Source of the DNA: a virus
Length of the DNA stretch: 43,472 nt
Reading direction: 5' to 3' (one strand)
Virus genome (UHGV): UHGV-0252305
A program made the translations under genes and the position numbers. Below are positions 15,324 through 32,591 of this stretch, one piece after another; the stretch's first letter is position 1; the number at the start of each line of letters is the position of its first letter. A model generated the notes under the pieces. That model was given only the letters and a program-made list of their open reading frames with translations. It had not been told where the DNA came from and did no database searches.

Positions 15324-15850
15324 GTGGTCAACAGGCCGCGTAATAACGGTATCTCTTTAGGTGTCATCAGTATACCAGTGCTTCGTTGGTTCAGCATAGG
15401 TGTACCGACATCCGCAGAGAATTCGCCTTTCTCTTGGTTGATAGCCTGTAACTCGTACACGACTGGGCCGTCAGCTGGATAAGACAGGTCGGTACTGACG
15501 TAACGACGGAAGACGAACTTCGGCAACTCGGTGTTACTCATCGGTATTTTATCCATCTCATCGTCCAGTTGATTGAGAATATCCGGTAAAGTAAACGTGG
15601 TCGTCTGGTCCATATCACTGTTATTAGCGGCCCCCGACGCCTCCATCGGGGTGGGTTCGAACGTGATAGTTTCGCCTGTTTCCAGTGTTGCCGTAAGTTC
15701 CTGTAACCCGCGCACAAGATAGTACGTCTTCGACAACAACGGATGGCTGATTTGCAATGTGATGTAATCCATCTCGCCGTCGGGGTTTGAGGCCAGCTTA
15801 CGGCGATAGGCGGCTTCTACTGATTCCTGACTCATTGCATCGGGTCCCAA
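15320..15850 (-). CDS. Minor tail protein
   Basis: Position between tape measure and tail tip genes; overlapping stop/start. Confidence 0.5.
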   Translation of the reverse strand: MGPDAMSQESVEAAYRRKLASNPDGEMDYITLQISHPLLSKTYYLVRGLQELTATLETGETITFEPTPMEASGAANNSDMDQTTTFTLPDILNQLDDEMDKIPMSNTELPKFVFRRYVSTDLSYPADGPVVYELQAINQEKGEFSADVGTPMLNQRSTGILMTPKEIPLLRGLLTT

Positions 15851-16332
15851 ATTCGTGGAAACGTTGATTGTGCGGTTCCGTAGGCTTTAAGGAAACCCCC
15901 CAGCCCGTCGCCATAGCAACCATACAAATCCGGCAGATTGTTAACAAGACACTGGTTCTCAAGGTCCTGAAACGGCGATTTCTCAGCGGTTGCCGTGAAA
16001 GTAATCGTCCAGTTAATGCCATCTTCGGTAGATTCCGCGATGGTTGACGTGATGGTTACCTGGTAGTCCTCAATACCCATGCCGAAGTCATGCGCCATCC
16101 AGAAACTTGACGCACCGCCATCGACTTTTTCGAGGAACGACAGAAACGCCTGCCGCCCTAGCGCCGATGTAATCAGGGTTACACTTATCGGGAACACGTC
16201 GTAATATGTGTCACGGCCCTGACGCACCCCGCCACCGGCTAAATCGACCCTCCAGACGTTGTTACGTCGGGTCATCGAGTAGCCTTTCGATACAATTGGC
16301 TTTAAACTTGCTGGAAATTTCAAAGAAGACAT
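15832..16332 (-). CDS. Minor tail protein (distal tail-like)
   Basis: 166 aa downstream of tape measure on - strand; SD TAGGAG. Confidence 0.5.
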   Translation of the reverse strand: MSSLKFPASLKPIVSKGYSMTRRNNVWRVDLAGGGVRQGRDTYYDVFPISVTLITSALGRQAFLSFLEKVDGGASSFWMAHDFGMGIEDYQVTITSTIAESTEDGINWTITFTATAEKSPFQDLENQCLVNNLPDLYGCYGDGLGGFLKAYGTAQSTFPRIWDPMQ

Positions 16333-16367
16333 GGCAAGATACTCCTATTAGTTTAGGAGATACTAAC

Positions 16368-17018
16368 ATGATGCCAACCGAAAAAGTAGCCAAGAGCATG
16401 TGGCTGCGTGCGAATTATCCTGCGAACAAAAGCAGCAAAACTAAGCGTGCAACTATATGCGATTTTGGCATAAATGACGCCGATTATGTGGTTAGCCCCA
16501 AGATAAACGGCAACCGTGAGACGTGTCTGGCGTACGCTACATGGCGAGGGATGATCCAACGTTGCGTGGGCGCCGAGTATAAAAACAAAAGGCCTGCGTA
16601 CAGGGATGTAACTGTGTGGCATGGGTGGCAAAGGTTTATGTCCTTCCGTAGATGGTGGCTTTGTAATTATGTGGAGGGATGGGAGCTAGATAAGGATATA
16701 TTCTCTGGTATTAATAAGGTATACAGCCCTACCACTTGCATCTTCATCCCTAAATGGCTGAATGTTTTCCTAAAGGAAAAGAAAAATAGGGGAACACCTA
16801 CGGGTGTTTTTTATGAAGAATCTAGAGGTAAATTTAAAGCCTCAGTGAGCTATGATAAAAAAACTATTAATCTAGGACGTTTTGAAACTCAGGAAGAAGC
16901 GCTAGATGCTTACATTGCTGAAAAGATAAGGGTGGCGGAATCAAGAAGATGTGAGATAGAGGCGATAAGGGAAGGTATGTTCGACCGCGTTATCGCCTTG
17001 ATAAAAGAGGGTCGTTAG
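16368..17018 (+). CDS. Homing-endonuclease-like DNA-binding protein with C-terminal AP2 domain
   Basis: C-terminal GVFYEESRGKFKASVSYDKKTINLGRFETQEEALDAYIAEKIR fits AP2 fold; N-terminal YATWRGMIQRC-type motif seen in phage HNH/AP2 proteins; ATG at 16368 with SD TAGGAG (track start 16206 rejected). Confidence 0.6.
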   Translation: MMPTEKVAKSMWLRANYPANKSSKTKRATICDFGINDADYVVSPKINGNRETCLAYATWRGMIQRCVGAEYKNKRPAYRDVTVWHGWQRFMSFRRWWLCNYVEGWELDKDIFSGINKVYSPTTCIFIPKWLNVFLKEKKNRGTPTGVFYEESRGKFKASVSYDKKTINLGRFETQEEALDAYIAEKIRVAESRRCEIEAIREGMFDRVIALIKEGR

Positions 17019-19758: not shown

Positions 19759-20175
19759 CTACTTTTCCTGCAATTGGTGAAGCTGTTCGTTGTGGAAAAC
19801 AACAACGTGTTCAGCGAGGCGTTTATATTGTGAAAAAAGAGTATTCAGGTTCTCTTTATTAAATTCATCGTCGAGACTCCAACCGTTAACCAGTTCAAGT
19901 GCTAACTGGCGGTTAAGGTCCGTCGCGGCGTCTTCCATCTTAATGTTATATTCCGAGAAATCTTTCAGTTCCTCGCATTTATCACGAAGCGGCTTCAGTT
20001 TACCTAACGACGCGCGGTACGCCAGGGTAAATGCACGCATGGCTTTAACCGCAACGTCTGCCTCCGGTGAAACAACGTTCAGCCACTCCCCTGAATCGGT
20101 GCCGTCTTTCAGTGGGATCGGCATACGGGCGCCTTTTTCTGCCTCAGCTTCGTAATAAAAATCAGAAAGTTTCAT
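19759..20175 (-). CDS. Tail assembly chaperone (gpG-like)
   Basis: 138 aa, acidic, immediately upstream of T-frame and tape measure; SD AAGGA. Confidence 0.55.
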   Translation of the reverse strand: MKLSDFYYEAEAEKGARMPIPLKDGTDSGEWLNVVSPEADVAVKAMRAFTLAYRASLGKLKPLRDKCEELKDFSEYNIKMEDAATDLNRQLALELVNGWSLDDEFNKENLNTLFSQYKRLAEHVVVFHNEQLHQLQEK

Positions 20176-20282
20176 TCTTTAATCCTTTGGTTAAGAGGTT
20201 ACGGGTTAAGGTTAATGCGCCAGACGGGAACCACCCGCTTTTCGTGTGCGACACTAGGCGCAAAATTATTCTATCACATTAC

Positions 20283-20311
20283 TTGCACACCCCAATATAA
20301 TAGTGTACTAT
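20283..20311 (+). promoter_or_regulatory. Promoter-like site TTGCAC-17-TACTAT with AATAG-N4-CTATT
   Basis: Inverted repeat at 20299..20311; upstream of Imm-like gene and enzyme cassette. Confidence 0.5.
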
Positions 20312-20352
20312 TCACTTACACCAACGATGTTATCCCAAACAGGAGCTACACC

Positions 20353-20544
20353 ATGACGGGTATTACTATGTTCTTCTTAATCATTATCGTTTTAGTTTAT
20401 TTTATTCCATTTCTCGTGGCGCATATGCGCGACCATAAAGCGAAATTAGCGATATTCATGGCTAATCTGTTTCTTGGATGGGTTCTGCTGCCGTGGGTAT
20501 TTATTTTAATCTGGGCTTGCAACTCGAATGTCAAAGAGAAGTGA
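20353..20544 (+). CDS. Superinfection-immunity-type small membrane protein (Imm-like, 2 TM)
   Basis: YFIPFLVAHMRDHKAKLAIFMANLFLGWVLLPWVFILIWA matches my recollection of the Imm_superinfect family; ATG at 20353 with SD AGGAG. Confidence 0.55.
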   Translation: MTGITMFFLIIIVLVYFIPFLVAHMRDHKAKLAIFMANLFLGWVLLPWVFILIWACNSNVKEK

Positions 20545-20581
20545 GCTAGTATAGGACAAATCCTAAGCACGAGGAATAAAC

Positions 20582-21712
20582 ATGGCCCGGAAGAAAATAA
20601 CCGACGAACAGTTGCAGGAAGAATTGAACGCCGGTATGAAGAATGTGGATATCGCCCGTAAATACGGCATCTCAGACCGCGTAATTCGTATCCGTAAAGC
20701 GAAGCTGGCTAAGAAAGGCGTGGGCCACGGGCGCGACGTTAGCCACCTTGTGCCAGACGGCTACAAGATTAAAGGAACGTCGTCACTTGTGGACGAGTTC
20801 GGCAACACTAAGTTGCAATGGATTAAGACTGATACCGACGCCGAACGTCAGGTTGAATTGATGAAAGCCGTAATAGAGGGCATGAAGTCAGAGATTACGC
20901 CCGTTGCGCCTGTTAAAGCGGCGCGCGCCAAACGTGACGACAAGCTACTCAATCTTTACACTGTATCTGATTTCCATCTCGGTATGCTGGCATGGGCCGA
21001 TGAGAGCGGCGACGACTGGGACATGAAGATTGCAGAAGACCTGTTCTCTCGGTGGTTCGACGCGGCGTTTCAGAAAGCACCGGATGCAGGAACAGGAGTT
21101 ATTAACCTGCTTGGGGACTTCGCACACTTCGATAGTCTTGATGCCGTTACCCCCGAGTCGCGCCATGTATTAGATGCGGATACTCGCTATCAGAAACTGG
21201 TACGTTACATGATTCGTATGGTCCGCCGTGTTGTTGATATGGCGCTGGTTAAGCATCACACAGTAAAACTTTTAATCGTTCAAGGTAACCACGACCCTGT
21301 TGGCTCCGTATGGCTTGCCGAAATGTTCACGGTTTTATACTCAAACGACAGCCGAGTGATTGTTGATACGTCGCCGGATGTTTACAAGATGGTGCAACAC
21401 GGCAAAACGACGCTGTTCTTCCATCACGGGCATAAAGCACGATTCGACGCTATCGAACCGGTTATGATTGCCAAGTTCCGTAAAGCGTTCGGCGAGAGTG
21501 TTTACAGCTACGCCCACGTAGGCCATCTGCACCACCAGAAGATTGTAGAAAGCCGTAACATGATTGTTGAGCAACACCGCACCTTAGCGGCTAAAGACGC
21601 CTACGCCTCTCGCGGCGGATGGATGTCGGGCCGCAGTGCAAATGTAATTACTTATAGCGCCGAATATGGCGAGGTCGCACGTTTAACTATTTCACCGGAG
21701 ATGCTGGGATGA
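20582..21712 (+). CDS. N-terminal HTH fused to calcineurin-like metallophosphoesterase (Mre11/SbcD-like motifs)
   Basis: HTH-like NVDIARKYGISDRVIRIRKAKL; phosphoesterase motifs DFHLG, LGDFAHFD, QGNHDP, HHGH, GHLHH. Confidence 0.7.
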   Translation: MARKKITDEQLQEELNAGMKNVDIARKYGISDRVIRIRKAKLAKKGVGHGRDVSHLVPDGYKIKGTSSLVDEFGNTKLQWIKTDTDAERQVELMKAVIEGMKSEITPVAPVKAARAKRDDKLLNLYTVSDFHLGMLAWADESGDDWDMKIAEDLFSRWFDAAFQKAPDAGTGVINLLGDFAHFDSLDAVTPESRHVLDADTRYQKLVRYMIRMVRRVVDMALVKHHTVKLLIVQGNHDPVGSVWLAEMFTVLYSNDSRVIVDTSPDVYKMVQHGKTTLFFHHGHKARFDAIEPVMIAKFRKAFGESVYSYAHVGHLHHQKIVESRNMIVEQHRTLAAKDAYASRGGWMSGRSANVITYSAEYGEVARLTISPEMLG

Positions 21713-22197
21713 AAGATATTGTAATTTTCGATTTAGACGGGACATTGGCCGACGGTACCCATCGCTTACACCTGTTACCAAAAGATAACTACGGAGAAAC
21801 GTGGGCGTGGAAGCCATTTAACATGGCCTGCAAAGATGACGCTCCGATATACGACAATATCCATTTGTGTAGCGTACTGTGGCATTCCGGACTTACTATA
21901 ATTATCCTTACCGGGCGAAGTGATGACGCTGAGGAGGAGACTCGCGAATGGTTACGAGAGAATAACGTTAGGTTTGACACGCTAATCATGCGCAGCAAAC
22001 ACGACAACAGAAAAGACATCGTAATTAAAGAAGAGGTGTTGCGTGCTTTCGGACTGGAAAGAATCTTGTGTGCGTTCGACGACTCTCCAGCGGTAATAAA
22101 GCATTTCCGTGACCTCGGCATAACCGTACACGCAGTTACCGAATACGACTGTAACGGGAACTCTACACACTTAAAACCACACGGGAGCGATAAATAA
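21709..22197 (+). CDS. HAD-family phosphatase, T4 polynucleotide kinase 3'-phosphatase-like
   Basis: Motif I IFDLDGTLA, motif II IILTGR, motif III KHDNRKDIVIKEE, motif IV FDDSP; pattern recalled from T4 Pnk phosphatase domain. Confidence 0.7.
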   Translation: MKDIVIFDLDGTLADGTHRLHLLPKDNYGETWAWKPFNMACKDDAPIYDNIHLCSVLWHSGLTIIILTGRSDDAEEETREWLRENNVRFDTLIMRSKHDNRKDIVIKEEVLRAFGLERILCAFDDSPAVIKHFRDLGITVHAVTEYDCNGNSTHLKPHGSDK

Positions 22198-22751
22198 TGG
22201 CTAAGGTAATTATTCTTAATGGCCCTGCGGGTTGCGGGAAAGACACGCTTGCTATGGCGCTGGTAGAAATGGGCTTTGCGAAAGGAACTACCAGTTTCAA
22301 GAATCCAATGTTCAATATTGCTTTGGCAGCGTTAGGCCAGGATGCTTACCACGAATTTCTCGACGGCTACGACGACCGGGCGCGGAAAGAAAAACCCGAG
22401 GGTTTTCTTAATGGGTTGTCCCGCCGCCGGTTAATGATTGCCATTTCTGAGCAATTCATTAAACCGGTATTCGGCGATGATTATTTCGGTAAGTATCTTG
22501 CTGAAAACTTGCCTGACGGCGACGAAGTTTTTGTAGTGTCCGATGGTGGATTCGCCAGTGAAGTTGCCCCTATCGTCGCCGCGGGGCATGACGTGCGAAT
22601 CGTCCGCCTCCATCGTGACGGCTATACGTTCATCTGCGATAGCCGTGGCTATCTGTACGATGTTAGTGGTGTAAAAGATTACGACACCTACATCATACCG
22701 GGTGACGTTAAATCGAACGTTATAGACATTGCTTTAAAATTAGGTTTGTAA
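22197..22751 (+). CDS. P-loop nucleotide kinase (T4 gp1 dNMP-kinase-like)
   Basis: Walker A ILNGPAGCGKDT; RRLM segment recalled from T4 gene 1 kinase; start overlaps upstream stop by 1 nt. Confidence 0.65.
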   Translation: MAKVIILNGPAGCGKDTLAMALVEMGFAKGTTSFKNPMFNIALAALGQDAYHEFLDGYDDRARKEKPEGFLNGLSRRRLMIAISEQFIKPVFGDDYFGKYLAENLPDGDEVFVVSDGGFASEVAPIVAAGHDVRIVRLHRDGYTFICDSRGYLYDVSGVKDYDTYIIPGDVKSNVIDIALKLGL

Positions 22752-22756
22752 GAAAA

Positions 22757-22779
22757 AGGCCCCGAAAGGGGCCTTAGTT
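22757..22779. terminator. Bidirectional terminator between kinase gene and major tail gene
   Basis: Stem aggcccc/ggggcct, loop gaaa; A/T runs on both sides. Confidence 0.7.
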
Positions 22780-23952
22780 TTATGCGTAGGTGATACGTTG
22801 AATTACGATAGACGACTGGTACTGATTGCCGGTAGCCTGGCCTTCAATGGACTGAGTGATTGACTCAGGCCCACCAATCTCAGGTGTAACCGCCGTAAGC
22901 TCTGCACGTTTCAAACTGAAAGACATAGCCCCGTTTACCCCTGCCAGAATAGAGTTAATCTCTACCTGCTGCTCGTTGATAAACTTCTGAATCATCGCCA
23001 TGTCGTACAGCTTGCCAGAGATAGAGAATGTGTTAGCTGCGCGTCCACGTTCGACGAACGCCACGCTACTGTTACCGAGTTCGAACTGCGCGGAAGCTCC
23101 GTTGTCGTTGGTGATGGTGAGAGTATCGCAACGCAACGGCGTGGAGCCATCGAACACCGACACATCTACCGACGAGAACGGCTCATCGGTGAACGTAACC
23201 TGAGAGAAATCAGAGCCAGACGGCGGCTCGGTAAGAATCTCCTGACTCAGGCCGATGAACGGGAAGCTGCCGGTGACCATGGCGTTAACCGCCTGCTCTA
23301 CGGTAAAGCCAGAGATTTCCACACCTTTGGTCAGCATGTACGCGCCCGGGTTACCACACTGGCCCTTGAACCACGTCAGGATGGAGAACGTCTTACACGC
23401 GTTACCGGTTTCCAGCTTGTCGCCAGTTTTTGCGTCAGTGGTTACTGTCTCTGCTGTCAGCGTGTGCTGAATACCTGCGCCCGTAACTACCAGAGCGGAA
23501 ACCGCGGTCACGATAAACGGTTTTGCGTTGTCGCCGGTTAAGCCGGTGAACGCAATAAGGTCGCCAACTTCTACACCGTCAGTAATGAAGTCACCGGCAG
23601 CGCGGGTGAATGTTTTACCTGCTGGGGCGACCGTAATTTTGGCGCCAGTAATCTTTACCCCAGCTTGCCACGTAGAAGTCATCGCTCCCGCAAGGAAATC
23701 ATCCTGGCTACGAGAGCTAAGTTCGATGGCGTACTCCCCGCTAACCTGTTTGTTACCGGTTCGGATGGATGTAGTTTCACGGCTGCCGTCCAGTTCGTTG
23801 GAAGTCAGTGCATCGCGGGTTACAGCGGGAACGCCGCCCGTGTTACGCAACGGCGACCATACCGGGTTAGTCGGTGTTACGCCAGGGGTATTTTCCGCCA
23901 CATAGAATTGCGCGGTATTCGCGCCCTTAAAAGGAGTTGTAGCCATATTCAC
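22780..23952 (-). CDS. Major tail protein (putative)
   Basis: 390 aa; first large gene of tail module after connector genes; Ser/Thr/Gly-rich. Confidence 0.55.
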   Translation of the reverse strand: MNMATTPFKGANTAQFYVAENTPGVTPTNPVWSPLRNTGGVPAVTRDALTSNELDGSRETTSIRTGNKQVSGEYAIELSSRSQDDFLAGAMTSTWQAGVKITGAKITVAPAGKTFTRAAGDFITDGVEVGDLIAFTGLTGDNAKPFIVTAVSALVVTGAGIQHTLTAETVTTDAKTGDKLETGNACKTFSILTWFKGQCGNPGAYMLTKGVEISGFTVEQAVNAMVTGSFPFIGLSQEILTEPPSGSDFSQVTFTDEPFSSVDVSVFDGSTPLRCDTLTITNDNGASAQFELGNSSVAFVERGRAANTFSISGKLYDMAMIQKFINEQQVEINSILAGVNGAMSFSLKRAELTAVTPEIGGPESITQSIEGQATGNQYQSSIVIQRITYA

Positions 23953-31937: not shown

Positions 31938-32591
31938 ATGAAACTGCAAACATTAGAGTTCCCTTATGGAGAAATCACTTTTGACCGTGAAAACTTTATT
32001 AACGTAAACGAGCTGGTTGACCAGATGAACCGTTGGCGTTTAGACAACGGCATGGGGGCCAGAGAGCTTCGCCAGGTCATGGCAACGGATGGCTTCAAGA
32101 TTTTCAAGGAGGAATGCGAAAAACAACTCGGAATCGAGAATGCCATAAGGGCGACGAAAGGCCGAAACGGTCGCACCTTTGCATGTCTCCATCTGGCAGT
32201 ATATATTGCTGAGCAATACAGCGCCTATTTCCATTTCCTCGTTATCGACCGCTTTATCACACAACGGCAGGTAGAACTACGAAACATTGGCGCGGTGAGC
32301 TTTGTCGAGCTTAACGCTGCCGTTAGTCGAATGATCGAGCGCACGGAGGGAAGAATTGGCCACAGTGGACACTTCATACAGGTGGCTAAAGCGGTAAAGG
32401 AATCCGTAGATATCCGCGACGTAACGGGTTTCGATACATGGGACTCTCAGGATGCGAAGACCAATCAGTTGCGAAGTGACATCCAGAAAGCTCTGGTGAC
32501 GCTTCTTGACATGGAGGCCGTTAATACATGGGGTGAACTGAAAGAGGCGATACCTCGGGTTGTGCGTAAATGTGCGGCTAATATACGTTAA
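31938..32591 (+). CDS. KilA-N domain protein
   Basis: KGRNGRTFACLHLAVYIAEQYSAYFHFLVIDRF fits KilA-N signature; own promoter with palindromic operator; bidirectional terminator downstream. Confidence 0.6.
   Translation: MKLQTLEFPYGEITFDRENFINVNELVDQMNRWRLDNGMGARELRQVMATDGFKIFKEECEKQLGIENAIRATKGRNGRTFACLHLAVYIAEQYSAYFHFLVIDRFITQRQVELRNIGAVSFVELNAAVSRMIERTEGRIGHSGHFIQVAKAVKESVDIRDVTGFDTWDSQDAKTNQLRSDIQKALVTLLDMEAVNTWGELKEAIPRVVRKCAANIR

What the first reader, a model, noticed from the sequence alone, without database searches (positions are those of the whole stretch)
20283..22779. Opposite-strand accessory cassette in the tail module: Imm-like membrane protein, HTH-Mre11/SbcD-like phosphoesterase, Pnk-like 3'-phosphatase, dNMP-kinase-like kinase
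Four + strand genes with their own promoter-like site and bidirectional terminator sit between the major tail gene and the tail chaperone genes, which are on the - strand. The three enzymes are translationally coupled. Together they supply a 5'-kinase-type P-loop, a HAD 3'-phosphatase with T4 Pnk phosphatase-like motifs, and a calcineurin-type metallophosphoesterase fused to a DNA-binding HTH. That is the activity set of a nucleic-acid end-healing machine but split over three proteins and with no ligase in the window. Alternative reading: a dNMP salvage/phosphorylation module. The preceding Imm-like protein suggests a superinfection or defence-related role. The split, HTH-fused arrangement in a moron position is not one I recognise as described.
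Basis: partly seen in the sequence, partly recalled or inferred. Interest (0 to 1): 0.75.

Follow-up and report, generated by a model that had tools for sequence, protein, structure and literature searches.

The report
Phage nuclease and nucleotide-salvage gene cassette
Four real, co-oriented genes sit inside the tail genes of this Kagunavirus-type coliphage, but they look like an ordinary, widely shared phage DNA-breakdown and nucleotide-supply block with an entry-blocking membrane protein, not a new split nucleic-acid end-repair machine.

Summary
Four + strand genes (Imm-like membrane protein, HTH-metallophosphoesterase, HAD phosphatase, P-loop kinase) lie between the tail chaperone and major tail genes. 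They have ATGA and TAATG overlaps, a promoter-like site and a two-way terminator hairpin.

The preferred interpretation, a split end-healing machine, is not supported.
- The HAD is homologous to the T4 Pnk phosphatase domain. It also shares a PHROG with T5 Dmp, a 5'-dNMPase.
- The phosphoesterase keeps all five metal-site motifs and is most like DP1, SbcD and Mre11 nucleases. It occurs in about 2,000 phage genomes, mostly without the other two enzymes.
- No ligase was found.

Jerseyvirus keeps Imm plus the phosphoesterase at this position with different downstream genes. Drexlerviridae carry the same phosphoesterase-HAD-kinase order, already noted in print as a likely nucleotide-supply extension.

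Best reading: a composite operon for DNA degradation and dNMP salvage. The window is 99.9% identical here to a published, annotated phage. The biochemistry is untested. The one interesting lead is that the HTH-nuclease could be the unidentified host-DNA degradation factor of T1-like phages.

The parts
20273..20301 (+). sigma-70-like promoter candidate for the cassette (ATCACA-17-TATAAT)
   Evidence: Consensus scan, 10 of 12 matches. Such matches are not enriched over shuffles. The -10 element is partly conserved in Jerseyvirus 'wast'.
20353..20544 (+). Imm-like small membrane protein (63 aa, two hydrophobic segments)
   Evidence: PF14373 Imm_superinfect at 51.4 bits against a cut-off of 27.9. 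phrog_1039 'immunity to superinfection', E 1e-23. Also present at the same position in Jerseyvirus.
20582..21712 (+). HTH-metallophosphoesterase, nuclease-like (376 aa). HTH at about residues 8-45, a beta-hairpin/helix linker at 61-102, and the MPE domain at about 119-376.
21709..22197 (+). Stand-alone HAD phosphatase of the T4 Pnk-phosphatase / T5 Dmp clade (162 aa)
   Evidence: PF25109, 74.6 bits. phrog_415, E 1.5e-64. PDB sequence hits are Pnkp1 4xrp and T4 Pnk 1ltq/5uj0. hhalign to T4 Pnk gives probability 96.4% over 131 columns; to T5 Dmp, 90% over 70 columns. D8, D10, R19, R70, D99, K102, D124 and D125 are invariant in a four-sequence alignment with T4 Pnk, T5 Dmp and a T1-like HAD.
22197..22751 (+). 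T4 gp1-type dNMP-kinase-like P-loop kinase (184 aa)
22756..22775 (.). Two-way intrinsic-terminator-like hairpin shared by the cassette (+) and the tail tube gene (-)
   Evidence: 8-bp stem with 6 GC pairs and a GAAA loop, reported on both strands. A T-run follows the stem on the - strand; TTTT follows three bases after the stem on the + strand.

Best explanation
This is a composite operon, not one machine. It is probably transcribed from its own promoter, in the same direction as the replication genes and antisense to the tail genes.

**Core of the insert.** An Imm-type membrane protein that probably blocks DNA entry by superinfecting phage, plus an HTH-tethered binuclear-metal nuclease of a large, uncharacterised phage family. 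This pair is shared with Jerseyvirus.

**Accessory pair.** A HAD phosphatase and a gp1-type dNMP kinase are translationally coupled downstream. The same pair follows the same nuclease gene in many T1-like phages.

**Proposed working, all steps inferred.**
1. The nuclease degrades DNA, most plausibly the host chromosome, to oligo- and mononucleotides.
2. The HAD either removes 3'-phosphates (from ends or 3'-dNMPs), as the T4 Pnk phosphatase does, or trims particular 5'-dNMPs, as T5 Dmp does.
3. The kinase converts 5'-dNMPs to dNDPs.
4. Host NDP kinase then feeds the phage's own family-A DNA polymerase.

**Shown here:** fold and family of each protein, intact active-site motifs, gene order and its distribution. 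**Inferred:** substrates, timing, and that host DNA is the nuclease's target.
For: **Kinase**
- It shares phrog_139 with T4 gp1 (152.8 and 222.6 bits).
- Distant family members sit next to dCMP deaminase (L002, L005), dUTPase (Faunus) and ThyX/RNR (V18).

**HAD**
- It shares phrog_415 with the characterised T5 dNMPase Dmp.
- A 44%-identical stand-alone copy overlaps nrdB in the T4-like phage ECD7. That phage has a second match elsewhere, presumably its own pseT.

**Phosphoesterase (MPE)**
- The full motif set is conserved.
- The nearest folds are nucleases.
- It is a persistent gene in 508 of 522 Drexlerviridae, with 'PNK' and 'dNMP kinase' the commonest genes right after it. The authors suggest these enhance nucleotide supply (PMC13164509).

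**Distribution**
- Counts of phage records by host genus: Escherichia 457 HAD and 465 kinase; Salmonella 45 and 43, against 373 for the MPE. HAD and kinase track each other; the MPE does not.
- The trio appears in the same order in T1-like contigs and a Yersinia phage.
- Jerseyvirus has Imm plus the MPE but different downstream genes.

**Biological context and precedent**
- T1 and TLS degrade host DNA and reuse the nucleotides, and the genes responsible are unidentified (PMC11447400).
- In T5, the predicted metallophosphatase A1 is necessary and sufficient for host DNA degradation. It works in a region that also encodes the DNA-binding protein A2 and Dmp (bioRxiv 10.64898/2026.04.02.716235).
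Against: - No biochemical or genetic data exist for any of the four proteins.
- The MPE is not detectably related to T5 A1 beyond the GNHD motif. A1 is absent from its top 50 viral structural neighbours, so the T5 parallel is an analogy only.
- In many phages the MPE sits beside lysis or packaging genes. That could point to a late role unrelated to salvage.
- Over the whole domain the HAD is closer to the T4 Pnk 3'-phosphatase than to Dmp (42.7 against 25 bits). A 5'-dNMPase paired with a dNMP kinase would be a futile cycle.
- The kinase misses the Pfam DNMK model, and its profile aligns to gp1's sequence only over the N-terminus.
- DNA ligase lies next to or near the kinase in two distant phages.
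Confidence: 0.55

Rival explanations
1. Split end-healing machine. The HAD removes 3'-phosphates, the kinase phosphorylates 5'-OH ends, and the MPE opens 2',3'-cyclic phosphates or trims ends. Broken tRNA or nicked DNA would then be resealed by a host ligase, countering anticodon nucleases or nicking defence systems.
For: - The HAD is a PF25109 member. Residues at the positions I recall as essential for the T4 Pnk 3'-phosphatase are conserved.
- Its best PDB sequence hit is the RNA-repair enzyme Pnkp1.
- The three genes are translationally coupled.
- From my own knowledge, bacterial Pnkp uses a calcineurin-type phosphoesterase for end healing.
Against: - The kinase has the gp1 fold and family, not Pnk/AAA_33.
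- Its distant relatives sit among nucleotide-metabolism genes.
- The MPE's nearest folds are DP1, SbcD and Mre11 nucleases. It mostly occurs without the HAD or kinase.
- No ligase was found among the large ORFs of the window or in a relative's annotation.
- There are no PADLOC matches.
Confidence: 0.08
2. Unlinked functions that merely share an operon. The HTH-MPE serves phage DNA transactions or regulation: SbcD-like processing of replication or recombination intermediates or concatemers, or a late-gene role suggested by its usual place beside lysis and terminase genes. Only the HAD-kinase pair serves nucleotide supply, and the host chromosome is not the nuclease's target.
For: - The MPE is adjacent to holin/endolysin and terminase or portal genes in Dhillonvirus, T1-like, Yersinia, Vibrio and Rhodobacter phages.
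- The N-terminal HTH weakly resembles GerE/sigma-70 region 4 and a 'late transcriptional activator' PHROG.
- The MPE occurs without the HAD and kinase in most lineages.
Against: - The fully conserved catalytic motifs argue for an enzyme rather than a pure regulator.
- The HAD-kinase pair repeatedly sits directly downstream of this gene in two phage families.
- No Rad50/SbcC-type partner is annotated in the relative's genome.
Confidence: 0.3
3. Nucleotide-pool editing rather than bulk salvage. The HAD is a base-selective 5'-dNMPase like T5 Dmp, and the kinase is a selective dNMP kinase. Together they skew dNTP pools, for example to counter dNTP-depleting host defences.
For: - The HAD and T5 Dmp share phrog_415 and a post-motif-I insertion that T4 Pnk lacks.
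- T5 encodes Dmp, and a T5 dNMP kinase has been purified (reference 48 of PMC11447400).
- Dmp is thought to optimise nucleotide pools.
Against: - Only the N-terminal half aligns with Dmp.
- Specificity cannot be read from sequence.
- Nothing here links the cassette to a defence system.
Confidence: 0.07

Closest known systems
Drexlerviridae block 'DNA repair exonuclease - PNK - dNMP kinase' upstream of the lysis cassette (PMC13164509)
   Same: The same three protein families in the same order, with HAD and kinase overlapping (L004). Identity to the window proteins is 40-47% (MPE), about 56-59% (HAD) and about 41-50% (kinase).
   Different: In T1-like phages the block ends the early/replication region and precedes the lysis genes. 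Here it is inverted inside the tail module and preceded by an Imm homologue.
T4 gp1 deoxynucleoside monophosphate kinase (PDB 1DEK, PF21448, phrog_139)
   Same: Same PHROG, best structural match, and a GKD(T) P-loop. In T4, gene 1 also lies among morphogenesis genes, between 57A and 3.
   Different: The window kinase is 184 aa against 241 aa. It has no Pfam DNMK hit, and profile-sequence similarity is confined to the N-terminus. Substrate range is unknown.
T4 polynucleotide kinase/phosphatase PseT (PDB 1LTQ)
   Same: The HAD domain is homologous over its whole length, with DxDxT, R19, R70, D99, K102 and DD conserved.
   Different: There is no fused Pnk-type kinase, the adjacent kinase is of another clade, and no RNA ligase partner was found. 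The window HAD carries a 13-15 residue insertion after motif I that T4 lacks.
T5 pre-early set: Dmp (5'-dNMPase), A1 (predicted metallophosphatase that drives host DNA degradation), A2 (DNA-binding partner)
   Same: Dmp and the window HAD share phrog_415. Both systems combine a metallophosphatase-fold protein, a DNA-binding module and a HAD phosphatase.
   Different: A1 is not detectably homologous beyond the GNHD motif. The HTH is fused here rather than being a separate protein. T5 discards host nucleotides, whereas a dNMP kinase here suggests reuse.
Mre11/SbcD and archaeal PolD DP1 exonucleases
   Same: Nearest solved folds, with the full binuclear-metal motif set.
   Different: No Rad50/SbcC or polymerase partner is annotated. 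There is an added N-terminal HTH. Sequence identity is only 12-18%.
Bacterial Pnkp (kinase - calcineurin-type phosphoesterase - ligase) of the Pnkp/Hen1 RNA repair system (own knowledge)
   Same: Combines a P-loop kinase with a calcineurin-fold phosphoesterase.
   Different: In Pnkp the domains are fused to a ligase domain and the kinase is Pnk-type. Here the kinase is gp1-type, the phosphoesterase resembles nucleases, and there is no ligase.

Membership tests
T4 Pnk-type end-healing enzyme | 5'-OH polynucleotide kinase domain of the Pnk/AAA_33 clade | tested here: not met
T4 Pnk-type end-healing enzyme | HAD 3'-phosphatase domain with DxDxT and the residues essential in T4 Pnk | tested here: met
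   PF25109 at 74.6 bits. hhalign probability 96.4% over 131 columns. D8, D10, R19, R70, D99, K102 and D124/D125 are conserved. Which T4 residues are essential is taken from my own knowledge of the mutational studies.
T4 Pnk-type end-healing enzyme | A partner sealing enzyme (RNA or DNA ligase) in the same genome | tested here: not met
   No ligase domain among ten large ORFs scanned. None is annotated in the near-complete relative PQ436005. Small ORFs were not scanned.
T4 Pnk-type end-healing enzyme | Activity on polynucleotide 3'-phosphate and 5'-OH ends | not testable with these tools
   Needs enzyme assays.
T4 gp1-type dNMP kinase (phrog_139 / PF21448) | Membership of the same profile family as the characterised enzyme | tested here: inconclusive
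   phrog_139 is met (3e-44; T4 gp1 itself scores 1.8e-65). Pfam PF21448 gives no hit at E up to 0.1, and hhalign to gp1 has probability 45% over 37 columns only.
T4 gp1-type dNMP kinase (phrog_139 / PF21448) | gp1-like fold over the whole chain | tested here: met
T4 gp1-type dNMP kinase (phrog_139 / PF21448) | Phosphorylation of dNMPs to dNDPs | not testable with these tools
   Supported only indirectly, by neighbouring nucleotide-metabolism genes in distant phages.
Calcineurin-like metallophosphoesterase, Mre11/SbcD/DP1 nuclease branch | Motifs DxH, GD, GNH(D/E), H and GHxH | tested here: met
   D130, H132, G178, D179, N236, H237, H282, G314 and H317 are invariant, and H315 nearly so, in 39 representatives at 32-50% identity.
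Calcineurin-like metallophosphoesterase, Mre11/SbcD/DP1 nuclease branch | Curated Pfam threshold for Metallophos / Metallophos_2 | tested here: not met
   22.0 bits against 27, and 17.2 against 21.5. Profile-to-PDB sequence search is also insignificant. The assignment rests on motifs and fold.
Calcineurin-like metallophosphoesterase, Mre11/SbcD/DP1 nuclease branch | Nearest structures are nucleases rather than protein phosphatases or nucleotidases | tested here: met
T5 Dmp-type 5'-deoxyribonucleotidase | Same profile family as Dmp | tested here: met
   Both are in phrog_415 (218.7 and 194.6 bits). Direct similarity covers only the N-terminal half.
T5 A1/A2 host-DNA degradation system | Homology of the phosphoesterase to A1 and of the HTH to A2 | tested here: not met
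   hhalign probability is 16% (20 columns around GNHD) for A1 and under 1% for A2. A1 belongs to a different PHROG.
Imm superinfection-immunity protein (PF14373) | Pfam gathering threshold, and small membrane-protein architecture | tested here: met
   51.4 bits against 27.9. phrog_1039, E 1e-23. The sequence shows two hydrophobic stretches.
LuxR/GerE or sigma-70 region-4 type HTH | Profile match above threshold | tested here: inconclusive
   GerE 14.6 bits against 23.5. FixJ C-terminus E 0.0025. GerE in PDB E 0.19. AF2 shows three helices at residues 8-44.

The most novel reading that the evidence does not exclude
The evidence does not exclude a new kind of split end-healing system. In it, a gp1-fold kinase would have been recruited to phosphorylate polynucleotide 5'-OH ends. 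It would work with a Pnk-type HAD 3'-phosphatase and an HTH-tethered phosphoesterase, and rely on a host ligase, to undo damage from nuclease-based defences.

A less radical but also new reading has a probability of about 0.3. In it, the HTH-phosphoesterase is the long-unidentified nuclease that degrades the host chromosome in T1-like and Guernsey-like phages, working as a single-chain counterpart of T5 A1 plus A2.
Probability: 0.07. Interest if true: 0.7.

Novelty: new member of a known kind. Interest (0 to 1): 0.3.

Why it matters
The practical value is mostly corrective.
- The label 'polynucleotide kinase', carried by hundreds of phage genomes for this HAD protein (phrog_415), is misleading. 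The protein has no kinase domain, and the family also contains the T5 5'-dNMPase.
- The adjacent kinase is gp1-like, so the pair should not be read as a Pnk.

The one lead worth an experiment concerns the HTH-metallophosphoesterase. It is a core gene of Drexlerviridae and Guernseyvirinae and is present in about 4% of sequenced phages, yet it is uncharacterised. T1 and TLS are known to degrade host DNA and reuse its nucleotides, and no gene has been assigned to that activity. This nuclease, with the salvage pair behind it, is a direct candidate.

Tried and rejected
- **PDB sequence searches.** Single-sequence and profile searches for the kinase gave only P-loop matches. For the MPE they gave nothing significant. 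Fold comparison was needed.
- **The search for related loci.** The run with the MPE alignment failed because it had no conserved 7-10 column stretch. I used tblastn against annotated phages instead.
- **The search for homologous proteins for the MPE.** The list showed only relatives of 93% identity or more. Diversity came from the representative search.
- **T5 A1/A2 homology.** Tested and rejected. The T5 parallel is kept only as an analogy.
- **Protein-phosphatase reading of the MPE.** Rejected on fold ranking.
- **Defence-system membership.** No PADLOC hits.
- **Pfam PF26880 (T5 dNMPase).** It is not in the local Pfam copy, since T5 Dmp itself gets no hit. That comparison was made through PHROGs and hhalign.
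- **Literature searches.** Searches for experimental work on these genes in T1-like or Guernsey-like phages found only annotation-level statements. The retron Eco2 paper mentions both search terms only incidentally.
Full report
**What the window is**

The region 20100-22900 is 99.9% identical to Escherichia phage vB_EcoS-22664BS2 (MZ234010). It is 87-94% identical to many Kagunavirus genomes, including K1ind1-3, Golestan and phiEc4. At 43.5 kb the window is almost a whole Guernseyvirinae genome.
- Replication genes are on the + strand at 1-10 kb: family-A polymerase, SNF2 helicase, primase, a PD-(D/E)XK exonuclease and an ssDNA-binding protein.
- Structural genes are on the - strand.

**Check of the observation**

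The four + strand ORFs are present as described:
- Imm-like: 20353-20544.
- HTH-phosphoesterase: 20582-21712.
- HAD: 21709-22197.
- Kinase: 22197-22751.

They lie between the tail assembly chaperone (19759-20175, phrog_15027) and the tail tube-type protein (22780-23952, phrog_290), both on the - strand.

The enzyme genes overlap by ATGA and TAATG, each with a GGAG-type site upstream. A TATAAT-containing promoter-like site lies at 20273-20301. A GC-rich hairpin at 22756-22775 scores as a terminator on both strands. Promoter-like matches are no more frequent here than in shuffled sequence (4 against 4.2), so the promoter remains a candidate only.

**The kinase**

Pfam gives only P-loop-level matches. 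PDB sequence searches, single or profile, also find only P-loops.

PHROGs places the protein in phrog_139 'deoxynucleoside monophosphate kinase' (E 3e-44). I confirmed that the biochemically characterised T4 gp1 belongs to the same PHROG (E 1.8e-65).

T4 Pnk's kinase domain is AAA_33/phrog_505. The window kinase aligns to it only over the 25-residue P-loop segment.

Gene neighbours of distant family members point to nucleotide metabolism:
- dCMP deaminase is adjacent in L005 and two genes upstream in L002.
- dUTPase is adjacent in Erwinia phage Faunus.
- ThyX and RNR are nearby in the rV5-like phage V18.

DNA ligase is adjacent in one of these phages and one gene away in another. I read that as ordinary replication-module clustering, but it is noted as counter-evidence. 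I assign about 0.8 to 'dNMP kinase'.

**The HAD**

It is a clear member of PF25109 'PNKP phosphatase domain' (74.6 bits). Its best PDB sequence hits are Pnkp1 (4xrp) and T4 Pnk.

A profile of four stand-alone HADs aligns with the whole T4 Pnk phosphatase domain (probability 96.4%, 131 columns). The nucleophile motif DxDxT and the residues R19, R70, D99, K102 and D124/D125 are conserved.

However, the same PHROG (phrog_415, labelled 'polynucleotide kinase') also contains T5 Dmp over its full length (194.6 bits). Dmp is a characterised 5'-deoxynucleoside monophosphatase. T4 Pnk itself belongs to phrog_505. Dmp also keeps the same catalytic residues and shares a post-motif-I insertion that T4 Pnk lacks. 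Family membership therefore does not decide between a 3'-phosphatase and a 5'-dNMPase.

A 44%-identical stand-alone HAD overlaps the end of nrdB in the T4-like phage ECD7. That phage has a second match elsewhere, presumably its complete pseT. This suggests stand-alone members work in nucleotide metabolism rather than duplicating Pnk.

**The phosphoesterase**

Pfam matches are below threshold, but several lines agree on the assignment:
- It is in phrog_704, E 1e-162.
- A representative search found 4,556 clusters (50% identity) of mostly 370-420 aa proteins.
- In 39 representatives at 32-50% identity, the binuclear-metal motifs DxH, GD, GNH, H and GHxH are invariant or nearly so.
- The model (pLDDT 90) shows a three-helix N-terminal HTH, a beta-hairpin/helix linker and the phosphoesterase domain.
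- BFVD returns only uncharacterised phage proteins.

The HTH has only weak GerE/FixJ/sigma-70 region 4-type matches.

**Distribution and linkage**

tblastn finds the phosphoesterase in 2,038 of 50,697 phage records, the HAD in 1,870 and the kinase in 1,533.

| Host genus (first word of phage name) | MPE | HAD | Kinase |
|---|---|---|---|
| Escherichia | 560 | 457 | 465 |
| Klebsiella | 468 | 576 | 445 |
| Salmonella | 373 | 45 | 43 |
| Vibrio | 254 | 99 | 188 |

HAD and kinase counts track each other in Escherichia and Salmonella phages. The phosphoesterase is far commoner in Salmonella phages.

The phosphoesterase occurs alone in Rhodobacter, Vibrio, Roseobacter and Tunturiibacter phages and in Dhillonvirus. 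It is often beside lysis or packaging genes.

In Jerseyvirus 'wast', the sister genus, the same tail-module position holds Imm plus the phosphoesterase. These are followed by an endonuclease, a hypothetical protein and a DNA-binding protein instead of the HAD and kinase.

In T1-like contigs and a Yersinia phage the order is phosphoesterase-HAD-kinase, as in the window.

A 2026 pangenome study reports this 'DNA repair exonuclease' as persistent in 508 of 522 Drexlerviridae. 'PNK' and 'dNMP kinase' are the commonest genes directly after it, and the authors interpret them as a replication-module extension that enhances nucleotide supply (PMC13164509).

So the cassette is composite: a conserved Imm-nuclease core plus a mobile HAD-kinase pair.

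**Mechanism**

T1 and TLS degrade the host chromosome and reuse its nucleotides, and no gene has been assigned to this (PMC11447400).

In T5, the predicted metallophosphatase A1 is necessary and sufficient for host DNA degradation. The same region encodes the DNA-binding protein A2 and the HAD dNMPase Dmp (bioRxiv 10.64898/2026.04.02.716235).

The window cassette has the same functional ingredients plus a dNMP kinase: a metallophosphoesterase, a DNA-binding module (here fused) and a phrog_415 HAD. I therefore favour a degradation-and-salvage line (confidence 0.55):
1. The nuclease yields oligo- or mononucleotides.
2. The HAD removes 3'-phosphates or trims selected dNMPs.
3. The kinase makes dNDPs for the phage polymerase.

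The T5 parallel is analogy only. A1 and A2 are not detectably homologous to the window protein.

The main rival (0.3) is that the nuclease serves phage DNA processing or late functions and only the HAD-kinase pair serves nucleotide supply.

The end-healing reading (0.08) fails on three points: the kinase clade, the independence of the phosphoesterase, and the absence of a ligase. It survives only through the Pnk-like HAD.

No protein matches any PADLOC defence model.

**Novelty**

The locus is already in GenBank and annotated, and the gene order has been noted in print. The component families are known, though the phosphoesterase family and the stand-alone HADs have not been studied experimentally.

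I rate it a new member of a known kind, with interest 0.3. The value lies in two points:
- Correcting the 'polynucleotide kinase' label of phrog_415.
- Nominating the HTH-nuclease as a candidate for the unassigned host-DNA degradation function of T1-like phages.

Noticed in passing
window 16206-17018 (+), with 15832-16332 (-): A + strand ORF of 270 aa inside the - strand tail module is an HNH (AP2-type) homing-endonuclease homologue (phrog_953, E 2e-64; weak Pfam AP2). It lies in a low-GC kilobase (0.463). The neighbouring - strand ORF matches only positions 127-305 of a virion structural protein family (phrog_384). The relative K-02 has one continuous 472-aa gene there. The endonuclease may therefore have split or replaced part of a structural gene.
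   Followed up: partly
window 20186-20262: The intergenic region between the tail chaperone gene and the cassette is strongly conserved between Kagunavirus and Jerseyvirus. It contains a cluster of GGTTA direct repeats: three exact copies (20189, 20197, 20204) and a fourth seen by eye near 20211. The paired-copy pattern GGTTA-N(2-4)-GGTTA occurs only here in the window, with 2 overlapping matches against 0.22 expected. A small hairpin plus T-run (about 20225-20243) follows. It could be a regulatory site for the tail operon or an operator for the HTH protein encoded next to it.
   Followed up: partly
window 31938-32591 (+): Another opposite-strand gene sits inside the head module. It is 217 aa, with a full-length match to phrog_6095 (labelled 'amidase', lysis category) and a weak KilA-N domain hit.
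   Followed up: no
phrog_415 (family level); L006:124-858, window 21709-22197: The PHROG label 'polynucleotide kinase' for phrog_415 is misleading. Members such as the window HAD have no kinase domain, and the characterised T5 5'-dNMPase Dmp matches the family over its full length. Pharokka-type annotations spread this name to hundreds of genomes.
   Followed up: yes
L020:2998-3474 (Escherichia phage ECD7): A T4-like phage carries a stand-alone HAD (44% identical to the window HAD) that overlaps the end of nrdB and lies upstream of denA and rnlA. A second match elsewhere in the genome is presumably its full pseT.
   Followed up: partly
L003:4585-4842 (T1-like metagenome contig): In one T1-like contig the HAD gene between the phosphoesterase and the kinase is called as only 85 aa. 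It is apparently truncated or frameshifted while the kinase is intact.
   Followed up: no
L014:3492-5316 (Dhillonvirus YD-2008.s): In Dhillonvirus the HTH-phosphoesterase, 74% identical to the window protein, lies directly between the lysis genes and the small terminase gene, with no HAD or kinase. The gene often sits at the boundary between the lysis and packaging genes in other phages too.
   Followed up: partly
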